NCBI GenBank assembly: GCA_021513695.1
Contig: CP084166.1
Coordinates: 1,760,001 to 1,824,000, forward strand
Direction: 5' to 3'
Source: Candidatus Heimdallarchaeum aukensis
GTDB lineage: Archaea > Asgardarchaeota > Heimdallarchaeia > Heimdallarchaeales > Heimdallarchaeaceae
Length of the DNA: 64,000 nt
Shown here piece by piece: positions 11,749 through 59,997 of this stretch. Every line of letters begins with the position of its first letter. The first letter of the stretch is position 1. The translations under genes and the position numbers were made by a program. The notes below the pieces were generated by a model, which did no database searches, was not told the origin of the DNA, and worked only from the letters and a program-made list of their open reading frames with translations.

Positions 11749-11859
11749 GCCAGGATACTCAAGCGGTAAGAGGTATGCCTGGAGAGTAATAATTCCAAGG
11801 TTTACCCATTAAGCATATGCCTTTATGGCTCCGGGGTTCAAATCCCCGTCCTGGCTCCA
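11749..11859 (+). tRNA. tRNA-Ser(GGA), class II with long variable arm and a 27-nt anticodon-loop intron (11785..11811); CCA encoded; discriminator U
   Basis: Folded by hand. Acceptor GCCAGGA pairs with TCCTGGC. D-arm is CTC/GAG, anticodon stem TATGC/GCATA, loop CUGGAG|A. The variable arm is GCC-TTTAT-GGC. T-arm is CGGGG-TTCAAAT-CCCCG. Confidence 0.6.
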
Positions 11860-32626: not shown

Positions 32627-32740
32627 GGAGCTATAGCTCAGCGGTCAGAGCGCACGGCTGATAAAGCAAAAAACCAGAAATGGTTTAAAATGCATTTAGA
32701 AACCGTGAGGTCCCCAGTTCGATCCTGGGTAGCTCCACCA
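32627..32740 (+). tRNA. tRNA-Ile(GAT) with 38-nt anticodon-loop intron (32664..32701); CCA encoded
   Basis: Folded by hand. Acceptor GGAGCTA pairs with TAGCTCC. D-arm is GCTC/GAGC, anticodon stem CACGG/CCGTG, loop CUGAUA|A. T-arm is CCCAG-TTCGATC-CTGGG. Confidence 0.65.
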
Positions 32741-42664: not shown

Positions 42665-43318
42665 CTATTGTTTTTTTGCTTCAAGGATATCTTTGACTCT
42701 TTTTAATCGAGAGAATGTTTCTCTTTCTTGTTCCTCTAAAGAACTTGCAATAAATATAGCAATTGCTTTTAGTTTAGGGATTAATATATAATTAAGAGCA
42801 TTTACCCTTCTTTTTGTTTTATTAATTTCAGAAGCTATTTTTTCTAGTAAAGTCATTTTTTCTGCAATAACCATTAATGTTTTCAAAGATTTTCGAAAAT
42901 ATGTTATTGCGAGATCAAGCTGTGCACTTGAATTTGCTAACCCATAGAAAACTTTCTCTTCTTCTGCTTCTTTAACTTCAGTAACAATAAACCTTGGTGC
43001 TTTTACACCCATTATGCTTGTTGTTAGAGTTTGAAGTTGTAGAATTTCAGGTGCATATTGTGCAAAATCTCTAATTTTGTCTGGTCCGATCATCATTTCA
43101 GCTTTGGCTAAAGCTTTATATGCTTGAAGGAGCTCCTCTTCAATTTGCTTTTTTGCTGCTCTAACTTCATCCTTAATTGCATAAAGTTCTAAGACTAAGG
43201 CATCCATTTTCTCTTTTAATAGATCATGACCTTTTTGTGCAAGTTTAATTTTTGCTCTGATATTTAACAGTTCCATACGTGTTGTCTTCACGGTACCAAA
43301 TTCAATATTGGCGCTCAT
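42665..43318 (-). CDS. atpD: A/V-type ATP synthase subunit D
   Basis: TRMELLNIRAKIKLAQKGHDLLKEKMDAL is the typical central-stalk D pattern. Confidence 0.75.
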   Translation of the reverse strand: MSANIEFGTVKTTRMELLNIRAKIKLAQKGHDLLKEKMDALVLELYAIKDEVRAAKKQIEEELLQAYKALAKAEMMIGPDKIRDFAQYAPEILQLQTLTTSIMGVKAPRFIVTEVKEAEEEKVFYGLANSSAQLDLAITYFRKSLKTLMVIAEKMTLLEKIASEINKTKRRVNALNYILIPKLKAIAIFIASSLEEQERETFSRLKRVKDILEAKKQ

Positions 43319-43595: not shown

Positions 43596-44204
43596 ATGAC
43601 AATGCTAGAAATATTTGACCGCGAAAAAAACGAAGAGACAATGGTTTTCCCAGGAACAAGGCTTGGTGTAATTGAAGAGTTTTATGCTGGACCTGGAACC
43701 TACACTGATGATGGTTACATCTATGCAGCTATACCTGGAAAAGTTGTAATTGATAAATTAAATTATGAAGTATCAATAATGCAATTAAAGAATAAGAAAC
43801 TAGTTCAACCCGTTGTTGGCTCCATTTGTTTAGGAACCGTTGTTAGTGTATCTAAGCAAATGATCAATATAGCAATTTATTATGTAAATAATGTTGAGGT
43901 TTACCCAACCTATTCTTGTTTATTACATGTTTCTCAGGCCTCAAAGGCCTATCTTGAGACAGCAGATGAAGCTGTTGCTTTAGGAGATGTTGTCAGAGTA
44001 AAGATAATCGATGCTAAGACAATTCCTCTTCAATGCACTATGGTCGATAGTCATCTAGGAGTGGTAATTAGTTATTGCTCTCGTTGCGGGAATAGATTGG
44101 AAAAAATAGGAAGAAACAAATTAAGATGCAATGAATGTGGAAATATTGAAAATAGAAAAACAGCTATTGATTACGGACACAGTGCTTTACAATTTAAATT
44201 ATAG
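43596..44204 (+). CDS. csl4: exosome complex RNA-binding protein Csl4
   Basis: An N-terminal domain and an S1 domain are followed by a C-terminal zinc ribbon CSRCGNRLEK...CNECGN. Confidence 0.75.
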   Translation: MTMLEIFDREKNEETMVFPGTRLGVIEEFYAGPGTYTDDGYIYAAIPGKVVIDKLNYEVSIMQLKNKKLVQPVVGSICLGTVVSVSKQMINIAIYYVNNVEVYPTYSCLLHVSQASKAYLETADEAVALGDVVRVKIIDAKTIPLQCTMVDSHLGVVISYCSRCGNRLEKIGRNKLRCNECGNIENRKTAIDYGHSALQFKL

Positions 44205-44218
44205 GTTTGTAGTCTGAG

Positions 44219-44950
44219 GTGATTTTATTGGCTAAAACTACAATGAAAGAACTCTCCATTAGTTTTACAGAGAAAGATAAGTTAACGCAATTCATAGACT
44301 TACTTTCTGATGCACCTACTGGAGTTGATCTTGTTCTTCAATACAAATTGGGGAGTATAAAAATCCGTTTATTTGGTGAAAAAGACGATGTTTCTGAATC
44401 TATTTCAAAAATAAAATCATTTAGTAAGATGTATCTTGAGTCAATAAGAAAGAATGATAAAGGTTTTTATGTTCATCATCTTCCTCTCATTCAACGCACT
44501 ACAAAGAAAATAATTGCTTTAGATACACTTTCAACTATTTTAAATTATGCAGGATTTGAGACTCAACTGGCTGAAAAAAAACTTATTTCAACAGCAAAGA
44601 TGGAAGATGTGCTTGATGTTCTGAACAAATCGTATGATATTTTACCCGAACTAGAAAAAATTAAGGGTAAACCATTAAGAAAGGTACTATTAACGGTTAG
44701 CTTTATTACTAATCAAAGTGTTGACTTTATTATCGACTATGGTCTAGAAAAAGGTTTCTTCAGAGAATATAAAAATAGAATTTTAGTTACACAAGATATC
44801 GAACGTTGTATCTCTGGGTTAATTCAGCATATCCCTCGTGATAAAACTGAAAAAAAACCTAGCATTCTTATTGAAACAAACGATAATGAGTGGACTACAA
44901 TAGGCGACCGTCTCGGAAATAGTTCTTTTGACGTCGATAATGATGATTAA
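44219..44950 (+). CDS. hypothetical protein between csl4 and rpoL
   Basis: A 243-aa ORF, co-directional, with short spacers to both neighbours. Confidence 0.45.
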   Translation: MILLAKTTMKELSISFTEKDKLTQFIDLLSDAPTGVDLVLQYKLGSIKIRLFGEKDDVSESISKIKSFSKMYLESIRKNDKGFYVHHLPLIQRTTKKIIALDTLSTILNYAGFETQLAEKKLISTAKMEDVLDVLNKSYDILPELEKIKGKPLRKVLLTVSFITNQSVDFIIDYGLEKGFFREYKNRILVTQDIERCISGLIQHIPRDKTEKKPSILIETNDNEWTTIGDRLGNSSFDVDNDD

Positions 44951-45028: not shown

Positions 45029-45319
45029 GTGTTAATGGAAATAAAAATTCTAAAAAAAGAAGACGGATATGTTAAACTAAACATCAGAGGAACTGACCCC
45101 CATACTTTATTTAATTTACTCCGAGTTCAATTATTAAGTGATCCTGAAGTAGACTTTGCAGGTTATTGGAGAAACGAATCTTTTTATGAAAGTATCATCT
45201 TCCAAGTAAGATTAAAGGATGAATCAAAAGACCCAATTGAAGTGATCAAGCAAGCTTTAGACAATATACGAGAACAAACAGAGGAATTTATTAAGGTGAG
45301 TAAAGAAAAGCTTAGTTAG
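45029..45319 (+). CDS. rpoL: DNA-directed RNA polymerase subunit L (Rpo11/Rpb11 homolog)
   Basis: VKLNIRGTDPHTLFNLLRVQLLSDPEVDFAGY is the Rpb11/RpoL pattern. Confidence 0.7.
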   Translation: MLMEIKILKKEDGYVKLNIRGTDPHTLFNLLRVQLLSDPEVDFAGYWRNESFYESIIFQVRLKDESKDPIEVIKQALDNIREQTEEFIKVSKEKLS

Positions 45320-45325
45320 TTTTGG

Positions 45326-45742
45326 GTGTTCTTTTTGGACAATTCTTTTTTAGATAAACAAAATTTAAATGAGATTTTAAACAATAAACACTTGGCTAAA
45401 TTTGGCGATTCTGTTGTAAATTTTGTTTATTCTTATGCACTGTTTAAAGCTTATAATATTCTAACAGGCATTAAAGTATCAGATTATTGTCTTTCAGAAG
45501 CATGTAAAACTTCACCTCTTAGAAATTATGTAGGTACTAGAAAAAAGAAGGGAGAACTAGGCGACGCTGTTGAGGCATTTATTGGCTATATCGTCATTCA
45601 AAATGAATCAAAACTTTTAGAAATTGTTTCGAACCTAGTCCACTTTCTTAAAATGTCAAAAATGGCTCTTAAGCAACCAGAAGACGAGATATGTGTAAAA
45701 GTTTTTTCTTTCTTATTAAACAAACTTTTCAATGAATTGTAA
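45326..45742 (+). CDS. Mini-RNase-III-like protein (single RNase III catalytic domain, no dsRBD)
   Basis: The RNase III signature-like KFGDSVVNFVYSYALF and the second acidic block GELGDAVEAFIGYI lie in a 138-aa protein. Confidence 0.5.
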   Translation: MFFLDNSFLDKQNLNEILNNKHLAKFGDSVVNFVYSYALFKAYNILTGIKVSDYCLSEACKTSPLRNYVGTRKKKGELGDAVEAFIGYIVIQNESKLLEIVSNLVHFLKMSKMALKQPEDEICVKVFSFLLNKLFNEL

Positions 45743-45777
45743 TTGGCTTTCTAAAGAAAGAAAGCTGAACAATTTTC

Positions 45778-46362
45778 TCATTCAAGGATATAATCTTTAA
45801 ATGTTTGACCAATTAGATCTGCTATTCTTAGAGATTCTGGTAAAAAACTAGTGAAAGTTGCCTTTTCAATAATCTCTCTAACTTCGTTAATTTCATCGAT
45901 ACCTACATACTGAACAACTGCCTCAAATTCTCTACCAATTTGATTTTTAAACTTTATACTTTTCATTGGAGGATTTGAAAAGAGCGTATTGTAACGTTTT
46001 TCTCCATCTTCCAAATGCATAATTGCTCTTCGAATTTTTTCTTCATCAGGTTTTTTACTTAAAATCGTAATAACAGGAATATCTAATTGTTCATACAAAG
46101 CATTCATATCTATTACATTAAAAGCAGCTATGGTTGAACTAGCTAAAAATATTGTTTTTAACTGTGTGACAAATTTACTTTTTTGTATCATCTTGATTAT
46201 TTTCTCCGTTGCATCTAGACCATCAACTTCTATTTCGCTCCTTAAAATTCCCTCTACAATATCATAGCCACGAGTTATCACTCCGAAAATAAAAGTTTTT
46301 TTGGATCTATTACGATCAAATGCAGCGTCATCAATACCTATTGTACGAATCTTGGTTTTCAC
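45778..46362 (-). CDS. DUF99/UPF0215-family protein (endonuclease V-like RNase H fold)
   Basis: IGIDDAAF...FGVITRG...VDGLDATEKI is the typical archaeal DUF99 pattern. Confidence 0.45.
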   Translation of the reverse strand: MKTKIRTIGIDDAAFDRNRSKKTFIFGVITRGYDIVEGILRSEIEVDGLDATEKIIKMIQKSKFVTQLKTIFLASSTIAAFNVIDMNALYEQLDIPVITILSKKPDEEKIRRAIMHLEDGEKRYNTLFSNPPMKSIKFKNQIGREFEAVVQYVGIDEINEVREIIEKATFTSFLPESLRIADLIGQTFKDYILE

Positions 46363-46412: not shown

Positions 46413-46955
46413 TTAAGTAAATTTTTTTCTGAGAATTGGGACAACGAACAAAGCGAGTAATGAAGTGCCCAAGCATACTGGTGTTTTTTCAGCTGTTGGC
46501 TCATTAACGTCTATTTTAATATAATATGAGTCCGTTGTTGGTTGAACTATATTGTCTAACCCCAAAAAGTCGAGAGAATTGGGAAGGAGAATATTTGTTC
46601 CATTTTCGTAATAAACTATGAAATGATATCCAATTGTTGAACCTGCTTCTTGTGTTACGTAATAGTTTCCAGAAAAAATATCACCATTTTGCTCCATTAG
46701 AACTGGATTCGTATCACAAATAAAATCAGGACTAAGTTGACAGAAAAAGAGCCTTATATAGGATATATCTTCTGAACTATAAGCTTCTATTGTAATAGTA
46801 ACATTTGTTTCTGGAGTAACAAATGAAGGAGTTTCGTTTATTGATTTTATATTGTAATTTTGTCCATAGACATACATTCTAGTTTCTAATGCAATAAAAA
46901 AGAAAAGAATTATGGTAATCATACCAACTAGTTTAACTGATAAGAGTTTTTTCAT
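46413..46955 (-). CDS. secreted protein with N-terminal signal/TM and C-terminal KTPV-TM-RKK anchor
   Basis: An N-terminal hydrophobic segment, an extracellular body containing Cys, and the C-terminus ...EKTPVCLGTSLLALFVVPILRKKFT. Confidence 0.45.
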   Translation of the reverse strand: MKKLLSVKLVGMITIILFFFIALETRMYVYGQNYNIKSINETPSFVTPETNVTITIEAYSSEDISYIRLFFCQLSPDFICDTNPVLMEQNGDIFSGNYYVTQEAGSTIGYHFIVYYENGTNILLPNSLDFLGLDNIVQPTTDSYYIKIDVNEPTAEKTPVCLGTSLLALFVVPILRKKFT

Positions 46956-46956
46956 T

Positions 46957-48285
46957 TCAGCTTAAAAGAAAAAATTCCAATAATAAATATATCCCCACTA
47001 ATATTATTATAACACTAGCTACTTTCTTGATGAGCTCTGTTGCATTTCTTATCTTTTTGAGTAGTGCATCTCGAGAAAGGCTAATAAGGAGCGTAGCAAA
47101 AGCCATGAGAAAAATAATTGTTAATGAAAAAGCTATGTATCCAAAAATTATTTTTGTCACAGATAAAGAAGATATTTGAAGAGCAAACGCAAAGAAAATA
47201 GGTGCGTTACAACCAAGTGATGCTAGTCCATATCCAATGCCATAAAGAAAGGTCTGATTTATTTTTGTTATAGTTTCTCTTTTCTTTCTTTTTTCTCTAT
47301 TTTCATTTATTTTCCTTTGTTTTTTGTTTATCCATTGTTGAATAGAGTTAAATTGTAAAGAAAAGTTTGTAAACATTGAAATTCCAAGTACGATTAAGAG
47401 CCCTCCGATTATAGGAACCAAGTAAGGAACATATTTTTTTATGCTTCCTCCAATAAGTGTGATTAGAACACCCAATATTCCGTAACTAATTAGTATTCCT
47501 ACTCCCCCAACACTACCAATCAATAAGTAAACTGGAGAATTTCCTTTGTGCTCTTCTTTTTCTGTAGCACTTGTTAAAGTGTTACTATCTTGTTCTTCAA
47601 TTGACTGATCGTTTTGTTCTTTTTTCCGTTTTTGATCTTGTCCTATAATATGAGCTAAGTAACTAGGAAGAAGGGGAAAAGCACAAGGAGAGAAAAATGA
47701 AGCTATTCCTGTTAATACAGCAAAACCTATAGTAAATTCACTTCTTGTAGTTATTTCTGTTCCACTTAACTCCCCATTTATTGTTTGTTGCAATACATCT
47801 CGTAATGTATCTTCAGCTATAACTCCTGTATCATGAAATGTGATTATACCTTCTTTACTAATAATAACAAAAGTAGGTAGAGAGATTACACTATAATCGT
47901 CAACCATATTCTCTGAAGCAAAAGCAACATACCAAGAAATATTATATTCTTGTTTATAATTTTCTAATCCTTCCTTTGTAGTAAATGAATCAATTTCAAG
48001 TGTTATTATTGTTATATTTTCATTTATCGATGAATCAGTCCATAAATTGTTTAACACAGGATTCATTTCCTTACATACTGTACAAGTAACACTCATGAAG
48101 TCAAGAAGAAAAACCTTATCACTTTGAGATTCAAAAGAAATAATCTCCCCTTCTAGAGTTTCTACTTGAAAAGATGCAGCTTTTTTGCTTCCAGAACCAG
48201 AATAACGTGTAAAAAAGTAAACTCCAAGCAAAGTACTTAATATTATAAATGTGACTGCTAAAATAATTGCATCTCGTTTTTTCAT
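46957..48285 (-). CDS. thioredoxin-like domain fused to CcdA/DsbD-type thiol-disulfide transporter
   Basis: Signal anchor, then a redoxin domain (LLDFMSVTCTVCKEM), then a six-TM CcdA-like region with FFSPCAFPLLPSYLAH. Confidence 0.65.
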   Translation of the reverse strand: MKKRDAIILAVTFIILSTLLGVYFFTRYSGSGSKKAASFQVETLEGEIISFESQSDKVFLLDFMSVTCTVCKEMNPVLNNLWTDSSINENITIITLEIDSFTTKEGLENYKQEYNISWYVAFASENMVDDYSVISLPTFVIISKEGIITFHDTGVIAEDTLRDVLQQTINGELSGTEITTRSEFTIGFAVLTGIASFFSPCAFPLLPSYLAHIIGQDQKRKKEQNDQSIEEQDSNTLTSATEKEEHKGNSPVYLLIGSVGGVGILISYGILGVLITLIGGSIKKYVPYLVPIIGGLLIVLGISMFTNFSLQFNSIQQWINKKQRKINENREKRKKRETITKINQTFLYGIGYGLASLGCNAPIFFAFALQISSLSVTKIIFGYIAFSLTIIFLMAFATLLISLSRDALLKKIRNATELIKKVASVIIILVGIYLLLEFFLLS

Positions 48286-48402: not shown

Positions 48403-48741
48403 TCACTCAATATCTATGCCTAGTGCCATTCTTATTAACTCTTGTACTCGATCTTCTTCTGACTCGTATTTAGCTTTTTTTCCTGGTACTTCAACTATTA
48501 CCGGATAAGTTTGTTGCCTAATTTTAGCAATTACATTACTATTTGCTTTAGCTACATCCTCTGTTACTATTAGTATTGCAAGGTCTGGTTGTTCAGCTAG
48601 TTTTCTCAAAATTCGTCCAGCATTTTCAGGTTCCATAGTATATGTTTCTGCTATTCCTGCAAGCTTAAAACCGAGTGAAGTTTCCTCGTCACCAACAGAA
48701 ACAATTTTTTTTCTTTCTACGTTACTACTCATCAAAATCAC
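48403..48741 (-). CDS. atpF: A/V-type ATP synthase subunit F
   Basis: KIVSVGDEETSLGFKLAGI...AILIVTEDVA is the subunit F pattern. Confidence 0.65.
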   Translation of the reverse strand: MILMSSNVERKKIVSVGDEETSLGFKLAGIAETYTMEPENAGRILRKLAEQPDLAILIVTEDVAKANSNVIAKIRQQTYPVIVEVPGKKAKYESEEDRVQELIRMALGIDIE

Positions 48742-59874: not shown

Positions 59875-59997
59875 GAGGGGATTGTCGAGCGGTCAAAGAC
59901 GACAGGCTTAAGATCACAGATTGCTTCTTTGAAAAAGGGCTAGAGAAGGAACCTGTTCCTTAGTGGTTCGGGAGTTCGAATCTCCCTCCCCTCACCA
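59875..59997 (+). tRNA. tRNA-Leu(TAA), class II, with 38-nt anticodon-loop intron (59913..59950); CCA encoded
   Basis: Acceptor GAGGGGA pairs with TCCCCTC. D-arm is GTC/GAC with an 11-nt loop. Anticodon stem is ACAGG/CCTGT, loop CUUAAG|A. There is a long variable arm. T-arm is GGGAG-TTCGAAT-CTCCC. Discriminator is A. Confidence 0.6.

What the first reader, a model, noticed from the sequence alone, without database searches (positions are those of the whole stretch)
45326..45742. Mini-RNase-III-like gene in an archaeal genome
The 138-aa protein contains KFGDSVVNFVYSYALF and GELGDAVEAFIGYI. These match the two signature acidic blocks of the RNase III catalytic domain (ERLEFLGDAVL / LGDAVEALIGAIYLD), with no dsRNA-binding domain. 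This is the architecture of bacterial Mini-III, which matures 23S rRNA. RNase III-family proteins are uncommon in archaea. It sits directly after rpoL and the exosome subunit csl4, so the context is RNA processing.
Basis: partly seen in the sequence, partly recalled or inferred. Interest (0 to 1): 0.5.

Follow-up and report, generated by a model that had tools for sequence, protein, structure and literature searches.

The report
Archaeal RNase III-like gene after rpoL
This is a real, strongly conserved small gene of an already catalogued archaeal RNase III-like family (Pfam PF11469, crystal structure 1ZTD), not a bacterial Mini-III, and it sits directly behind the RNA polymerase gene rpoL in nearly every archaeal lineage checked, though nobody has tested what it does.

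Summary

Three canonical acidic residues align (D28, D80, E83 = E. coli D45, D114, E117). D28 is invariant and E83 nearly so (153/155). E41, E38 and the dimer "ball" F42 are replaced by Ala, Lys and Lys. Active Mini-III also has Ala at the E41 position.

The family is small (208 clusters at E<=0.001 in 1.84 billion proteins). Every cluster that carries a name is archaeal: all major Asgard classes, Methanosuratincola, MSBL1 and Thermococcales. The order csl4-(DUF2067)-rpoL-this gene holds in all 29 Heimdall-type genomes and in 6 other archaeal loci, but not in Pyrococcus.

The true start is probably TTG 45335 behind a Shine-Dalgarno-like motif, which suggests translational coupling to rpoL. dN/dS is 0.085.

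Bacterial transfer is not supported. The most likely role is a Mg-dependent structured-RNA endonuclease in housekeeping RNA processing, but this is untested. It is a known family and this protein is already annotated, so interest is moderate to low.

The parts
45335..45742 (+). RNase III-like (PF11469) coding sequence. The probable start is TTG 45335 (135 aa). The longest ORF starts at GTG 45326 (138 aa), and residue numbers in this report use the 138-aa ORF.
   Evidence: ORF. PF11469 49.1 bits. 1ZTD homology. Start-codon comparison. dN/dS 0.085.
45323..45328 (+). Shine-Dalgarno-like TGGGTG between the rpoL stop (45317-45319) and the TTG start. It suggests translational coupling to rpoL.
   Evidence: Junction comparison of 33 loci shows GGTG/GGAGG/AGGTGG at this place.
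45392..45430 (+). Block 1, LAKFGDSVVNFVY, the degenerate RNase III signature motif. G27, D28 (codon 45407-45409) and N32 are invariant. A24 occupies the E. coli E41 position, K21 the E38 position and K25 the F42 position.
   Evidence: Conservation in 155 family members. Register against Drosha and Aquifex. Register against E. coli.
45551..45586 (+). Block 2, GELGDAVEAFIG. D80 (45563-45565) is D in 123 and N in 28 of 155 members. E83 (45572-45574) is E in 153 of 155. They correspond to E. coli D114 and E117.
45743..45768 (+). Terminator-like hairpin (10 pairs) followed by a T-run, immediately after the stop codon. It lies between this gene and the convergent EndoDU gene.
   Evidence: sequence.
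45029..45319 (+). rpoL (RNA polymerase subunit L/Rpb11), the conserved upstream partner.
   Evidence: PF13656 54 bits and NCBIfam RpoL models. Adjacency in 29 of 29 genome loci plus 6 other archaeal loci.
44219..44950 (+). DUF2067 gene, inserted between csl4 and rpoL in the Heimdall-type loci only.
   Evidence: PF09840 87.7 bits. Synteny. Absent between csl4 and rpoL.
43596..44204 (+). csl4 (exosome cap subunit), first gene of the co-directional cluster.
   Evidence: NF034126 167.9 bits against a cutoff of 90.

Best explanation
The gene encodes a single-domain, roughly 135-aa member of the archaeal RNase III-like family PF11469. I think it most likely acts as a small divalent-metal-dependent endonuclease on double-stranded or highly structured RNA. 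The invariant D28 and N32 and the near-invariant E83, with D80 helping, would hold the metal ions, as D45, E117 and D114 do in E. coli RNase III. Because there is no dsRBD, substrate choice would come from the catalytic domain itself or from a partner, as in Mini-III.

It is made from the last cistron of the csl4-DUF2067-rpoL transcription unit. It uses a weak TTG start placed 15 nt after the rpoL stop behind a Shine-Dalgarno-like motif. This should give low expression that is coupled to rpoL, followed by a terminator-like hairpin.

The probable job is housekeeping RNA processing, with stable-RNA (pre-rRNA) maturation or clearance of sense/antisense duplexes as the leading candidates.

Shown here: family membership, fold, residue alignment, purifying selection, and operon position across archaea. 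Inferred only: nuclease activity, dimerisation, and the substrate.
For: - Family membership: PF11469 above cutoff.
- Residue register: profile alignments put D28, D80 and E83 in register with the catalytic D, D and E of Drosha RIIIDa, Aquifex and E. coli RNase III.
- Conservation: G27, D28 and N32 are invariant and E83 is 153/155 in 155 members of about 30% mean identity. This is the pattern of a kept active site, not of a decayed pseudo-enzyme.
- D80 variation: the D80->N variant seen in 28 members also occurs at the same position in Drosha RIIIDa. D114 is the most mutation-tolerant active-site residue in E. coli (PMC10037077).
- E41 position: active B. subtilis Mini-III also has Ala there (LALAYIGD, sequence verified). 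Mini-III also shows that a dsRBD is not needed for activity (PMC3867540).
- Selection: dN/dS is 0.085.
- Synteny: rpoL is followed by this gene in 29 of 29 genome loci and in 6 further archaeal loci.
- Expression signals: conserved SD-like motif plus TTG start and a terminator-like hairpin.
Against: - No biochemical or genetic data exist for any PF11469 member in the literature I could search.
- The E. coli E41 equivalent is Ala or Ser throughout the family. In E. coli no substitution of E41 is tolerated (PMC10037077).
- E38 is replaced by Lys or Arg.
- F42, the dimer-interface "ball", is replaced by Lys, Ser, Arg or Gln. F42G, D and R inactivate E. coli RNase III (Table 1 of PMC8708148). The canonical dimer and two-metal site may therefore not form as in RNase III.
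- Dimerisation could not be tested.
- In Pyrococcus the gene is not linked to rpoL, so the operon link is not universal.
Confidence: 0.55

Rival explanations
1. It is a catalytically inert RNase III-like fold that binds structured RNA or serves as an assembly or accessory factor, for example for RNA polymerase, the exosome or ribosome biogenesis. The RNase III-like mitoribosomal proteins mL44 and mL57 and the editosome KREPB proteins work this way.
For: - The E41, E38 and F42 equivalents are non-canonical (A/S, K/R and K/S/R/Q).
- E41 and F42 are intolerant positions in E. coli.
- There is no dsRBD.
- The tight translational coupling to rpoL would suit a stoichiometric partner.
Against: - D28 and N32 are invariant and E83 is 153/155 at the metal-binding positions across about 30%-identical sequences. 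This would be unexpected for a purely structural protein.
- Mini-III is active with Ala at the E41 position.
- The weak TTG start suggests sub-stoichiometric expression relative to RpoL.
Confidence: 0.25
2. It is a nuclease acting on RNA:DNA hybrids or on nascent transcripts at the transcription/replication interface (R-loop or primer processing, or transcript release), rather than on dsRNA.
For: Outside Heimdall the gene lies between rpoL and TFS, followed by PCNA, primase and GINS genes. Endonuclease dU lies next to it in the window and in L035.
Against: This cluster is a general archaeal information-processing superoperon, so adjacency to replication genes is weak evidence. No RNase III-family enzyme that I know of has RNA:DNA hybrids as its main substrate. 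Nothing in the sequence speaks for it.
Confidence: 0.1
3. It is an ortholog of bacterial Mini-III (MrnC), acquired by horizontal transfer, that matures 23S rRNA.
For: It has the same minimal architecture (RNase III domain only). It has Ala at the E41 position, as Mini-III does. Its size is similar (135 against 143 aa).
Against: - hhalign probability is 16% over 17 columns against Mini-III, compared with 56% over 75 columns against E. coli RNase III.
- There is no NCBIfam Mini-III hit.
- Mini-III lacks the D114 equivalent that this family keeps.
- The sampled named clusters are all archaeal, and the operon position is conserved across Asgard, Methanosuratincola-type and other archaea.
Confidence: 0.03

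Closest known systems
Pfam PF11469 (Ribonucleas_3_2); solved member PDB 1ZTD, P. furiosus 'hypothetical protein Pfu-631545-001'
   Different: Identity to 1ZTD is only 29%. The Pyrococcus gene is not next to rpoL; it lies between an Fe-ADH gene and a PF0610-like gene. The Heimdall and other Asgard genes are next to rpoL. No function is known for either protein. [quoted passage not shown]
Bacterial class 1 RNase III (rnc; E. coli, Aquifex aeolicus)
   Different: There is no dsRBD. E38, E41 and F42 are replaced. The segment carrying E65 is absent, appearing as an 8-residue gap. It is below the PF00636, PF14622 and TIGR02191 cutoffs.
Bacterial/plastid Mini-III (MrnC; PDB 4OUN, 6TNN)
   Same: It is a catalytic-domain-only RNase III relative of about 140 aa with Ala at the E41 position. 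It probably works like this family in that specificity must come from the nuclease domain or a partner.
Asgard rnc (RNase III + dsRBD) genes flanking HrAgo1-type Argonautes
   Same: It is an RNase III-superfamily protein encoded in Asgard archaea (bioRxiv 10.1101/2023.12.14.571608).
   Different: Those are canonical two-domain rnc genes in Argonaute/helicase clusters. This gene is single-domain and housekeeping-linked (csl4-rpoL operon). It has no defence-system match.

Membership tests
Pfam PF11469 Ribonucleas_3_2 (archaeal RNase III-like) | Score at or above the family's gathering cutoff over most of the model | tested here: met
   49.1 bits against a cutoff of 25, E=9.3e-13, residues 21-133 on model positions 1-112 of 119. 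All homologs found also carry PF11469.
Pfam PF11469 Ribonucleas_3_2 (archaeal RNase III-like) | Same fold as the solved member 1ZTD | tested here: met
Pfam PF11469 Ribonucleas_3_2 (archaeal RNase III-like) | Single-domain protein of about 120-170 aa found in archaea | tested here: met
   The best 150 of 208 clusters have a median length of 140 aa. Named members are all archaeal.
RNase III superfamily (catalytic RIIID) | RNase III-domain fold | tested here: met
RNase III superfamily (catalytic RIIID) | Full signature motif ERLEFLGD (E38, E41, F42, G44, D45 in E. coli) | tested here: not met
   Only G27 and D28 are kept. E38 is K/R, E41 is A/S and F42 is K/S/R/Q.
RNase III superfamily (catalytic RIIID) | Second acidic block D114...E117 | tested here: met
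   D80 is D in 123 and N in 28 of 155 members. E83 is E in 153 of 155. Both are in register with Drosha, Aquifex and E. coli.
RNase III superfamily (catalytic RIIID) | Homodimer forming a catalytic valley; Mg2+-dependent dsRNA cleavage leaving 2-nt 3' overhangs | not testable with these tools
No coordinates are accessible and no biochemistry has been published.
   PF00636 scores 20.5 against 27 (E=8.7e-4, second block only). PF14622 scores 16 against 35.
Bacterial Mini-III (MrnC) | RNase III domain without dsRBD | tested here: met
   It is 135-138 aa with one domain and no dsRBD hit.
Bacterial Mini-III (MrnC) | Sequence and structure closer to Mini-III than to other RNase III branches | tested here: not met
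Bacterial Mini-III (MrnC) | Matures 23S rRNA ends on the assembled 50S subunit, stimulated by L3 | not testable with these tools
   No experimental data. No rRNA gene lies in the window.
Bacterial class 1 RNase III (rnc, TIGR02191) | Equivalog score and a C-terminal dsRBD | tested here: not met
   It scores 21.6 bits against a cutoff of 166.25. The protein ends after the nuclease-type domain.

The most novel reading that the evidence does not exclude
Probability: 0.12. Interest if true: 0.7.

Novelty: new member of a known kind. Interest (0 to 1): 0.3.

Why it matters
Recent reviews state that archaea lack RNase III (PMC8708148, PMC11404451). Nicholson's review (PMC3867540) asks how archaea process dsRNA at all. 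Yet a conserved RNase III-fold protein with a preserved D/E metal site sits in the core csl4-rpoL operon of every Asgard class sampled. It also occurs in genetically tractable Thermococcales.

If it is an active nuclease, it would be a candidate for still-unassigned archaeal RNA processing steps. One example is the opening of circular pre-rRNAs, whose enzymes are uncharacterised (PMC8339473). Another is the H98 excision in Pyrococcus 23S rRNA, discussed in PMC7758197.

That said, the family is already in Pfam, has had a crystal structure since 2005, and is named 'ribonuclease III family protein' by NCBI. The finding is therefore an under-studied known family, not a discovery.

Tried and rejected
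- **Bacterial Mini-III membership or HGT:** rejected.
- **Defence-system role:** no PADLOC hit for this gene or its two neighbours, and the context is housekeeping.
- **Specific affinity to eukaryotic RNase III:** the better PDB profile E-value for Drosha (0.0024) is the sum of two weak domain hits (8.8 + 8.2 bits). It is not better per domain than Aquifex, so no conclusion can be drawn.
- **AFDB structure search for eukaryotic look-alikes:** the library was unavailable.
- **Viral-contig search with the family alignment:** the alignment had no stretch conserved enough.
- **Literature searches:** searches for PF11469, 1ZTD, 'archaeal RNase III' and Ribonucleas_3_2 found no functional study.
- **Sigma-70 promoter scan:** not informative for an archaeon. 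Only the hairpin result was used.
- **GTG 45326 as start codon:** rejected as the most likely start in favour of TTG 45335.

Full report
**1. The observation**

The window has an ORF at 45326..45742 (+) of 138 aa with both quoted peptides (DNA). The nearest database protein (99% identical, 135 aa) is K9W45_07940 of Candidatus Heimdallarchaeum aukensis, on a 3.08-Mb contig. The window is therefore Asgard (Heimdallarchaeia) DNA.

The gene is under strong purifying selection. dN/dS is 0.085 (dS 0.92) against the Ca. H. endolithica ortholog.

**2. Start codon and transcription unit**

rpoL ends at 45319. I compared 33 rpoL/downstream-gene junctions. After the rpoL stop comes a conserved GGTG/GGAGG/AGGTGG motif. 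Then, 5-8 nt later, comes TTGGAC, which reads ATGGAC in L014. Three orthologs have no other possible start.

In the window this corresponds to TGGGTG (45323-45328) and TTG 45335. That gives the 135-aa product that NCBI annotates. The GTG at 45326 only defines the longest ORF.

A 10-pair hairpin followed by a T-run sits right after the stop (45743-45768), facing the convergent Endo_dU gene. The gene is thus the last cistron of csl4 (43596-44204) - DUF2067 (44219-44950) - rpoL (45029-45319) - this gene. It has a weak start codon placed as if translationally coupled to rpoL.

**3. Family**

| Model | Score | Cutoff |
|---|---|---|
| PF11469 (Ribonucleas_3_2) | 49.1 bits, E=9.3e-13 | 25 |
| PF00636 (classical RNase III) | 20.5 bits | 27 |
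| PF14622 (classical RNase III) | 16 bits | 35 |
| TIGR02191 (rnc) | 21.6 bits | 166 |

- The only solved relative by sequence is 1ZTD, a structural-genomics 'hypothetical protein' of P. furiosus. It scores E=4.9e-6 with the single sequence and 6.7e-32 with a 75-sequence profile.
- The next structural hits are an unbroken series of RNase III domains: Pichia Dicer 8.5, E. coli RNase III 8.0, Drosha 7.8, Campylobacter and Thermotoga RNase III, Giardia Dicer, and others. Mini-III (4OUN, 2GSL) scores only 6.5. Foldseek agrees.
- hhalign of the family profile aligns 75 columns with E. coli RNase III (probability 56%). It aligns only the 17 columns of the second block with B. subtilis Mini-III (probability 16%).

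The protein therefore belongs to the RNase III superfamily, in its own archaeal family. It is not a Mini-III.

**4. Catalytic residues**

In register with E. coli, Aquifex and Drosha, the positions are as follows.

| This protein (138-aa numbering) | E. coli equivalent | State across 155 members |
|---|---|---|
| D28 | D45 | invariant |
| G27 | G44 | invariant |
| N32 | Aquifex N at +4 | invariant |
| E83 | E117 | 153 of 155 |
| D80 | D114 | D in 123, N in 28 |
| K21 | E38 | K or R |
| A24 | E41 | A in 126, S in 21 |
| K25 | F42 (dimer 'ball') | K, S, R or Q |
| none | E65 | loop carrying it is absent |

- Drosha RIIIDa also has N at the D114 position.
- D114 is the tolerant active-site position in E. 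coli, whereas E41, D45 and E117 tolerate no change (PMC10037077).
- F42G, D and R are inactive in E. coli (PMC8708148 Table 1).
- Against this, the active enzyme Mini-III has Ala at the E41 position (LALAYIGD; sequence verified against 4OUN and 6TNN). It also works without a dsRBD (PMC3867540).

In sum, the two residues most central to catalysis are strictly kept, which favours an active metal site. However, the site and the dimer interface are not canonical.

**5. Distribution**

An exhaustive HMMER search of 1.84 billion cluster representatives found only 208 clusters at E<=0.001. The best 150 are listed and are almost all 80-190 aa, with a median of 140.

Named members come from the following lineages:
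- Asgard: Heimdall-, Hod-, Hel-, Loki-, Thor-, Hermod-, Njord-, Atabeya-, Frey/Jord- and Sif/Borr-archaea.
- Other archaea: Methanosuratincola, MSBL1 and Thermococcales.

An earlier survey of complete genomes found the family only in Thermococcaceae and Thermofilaceae (bioRxiv 10.1101/705046). No bacterial name appeared in the sample. NCBI already labels many members 'ribonuclease III family protein'.

**6. Synteny**

- All 29 species-representative genomes with a close homolog keep DUF2067-rpoL-gene.
- Of these, 27 keep the full csl4-DUF2067-rpoL-gene cluster, convergent with EndoDU.
- In Atabeyarchaeia, Thorarchaeota, a Njord-like contig and three unassigned archaeal contigs, the order is (Dph2)-methyltransferase-csl4-rpoL-gene. 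It is usually followed by TFS, then PCNA, primase and GINS.
- In one of those loci, rpoL and the gene overlap by 4 nt (L035).
- P. furiosus is the exception. There the gene lies between an Fe-ADH gene and a PF0610-like gene.

Such a fixed position in a core information-processing operon argues for vertical inheritance and a housekeeping role. It argues against recent bacterial transfer or a defence function. There was also no PADLOC hit.

**7. Literature**

I found no functional study of this family.
- Reviews say RNase III is sporadic in or absent from archaea (PMC3867540; PMC8708148; PMC11404451).
- The enzymes that open circular pre-rRNAs are uncharacterised (PMC8339473).
- The Asgard rnc genes next to Argonautes are canonical RNase III+dsRBD proteins and are a different thing.

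**8. Verdict**

It is wrong on Mini-III kinship and on bacterial transfer.

My best explanation, at confidence 0.55, is a small metal-dependent endonuclease for structured or double-stranded RNA, expressed with rpoL. The main rival, at 0.25, is an inert RNA-binding or assembly factor.

The family and this very protein are already catalogued. This is a new, well-documented member of a known but uncharacterised family, and interest is moderate to low.

Noticed in passing
window 11749-11856, 32627-32737, 59875-59994: Rfam finds five tRNAs, but ARAGORN (bacterial mode) finds only two. The three it misses are 108-120 nt long, as expected for intron-containing archaeal tRNA genes.
   Followed up: no
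window 44219-44950 (+): A DUF2067 gene (PF09840, function unknown) sits between csl4 and rpoL in all Heimdall-type loci. It is absent from that position in the other Asgard and archaeal loci, where csl4 directly precedes rpoL.
   Followed up: partly
window 45778-46362 (-); L035 5633-6097 (+): An Endo_dU (PF01949) gene lies convergent to the RNase III-like gene in 27 Heimdall loci. In an unassigned archaeal contig it follows the gene on the same strand. This is a recurring neighbour of unclear significance.
   Followed up: partly
window 42665-43318 (-) and 48403-48741 (-): A-type ATP synthase genes for subunits D and F are separated by about 5 kb. That stretch holds the csl4-DUF2067-rpoL-RNase III-like cluster, EndoDU, a 180-aa ORF with no Pfam hit (46413-46955) and a thioredoxin-DsbD fusion (46957-48285). 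atpD is also adjacent to csl4 in most other Heimdall loci.
   Followed up: no
window 45317-45337 and the equivalent junctions in L001-L035: Nearly all Heimdall orthologs use a TTG start 10-16 nt after the rpoL stop, behind a Shine-Dalgarno-like GGTG/GGAGG. Only L014 (and possibly L010) has ATG there. A conserved weak start codon hints at deliberately low, rpoL-coupled expression.
   Followed up: yes
L024 (JBHLQZ010000076.1, labelled Thorarchaeota): This contig has the Heimdall-specific arrangement, including DUF2067, and Heimdall-level identities. A different Thorarchaeota contig (L031) lacks DUF2067. The bin label of L024 may be wrong.
   Followed up: no
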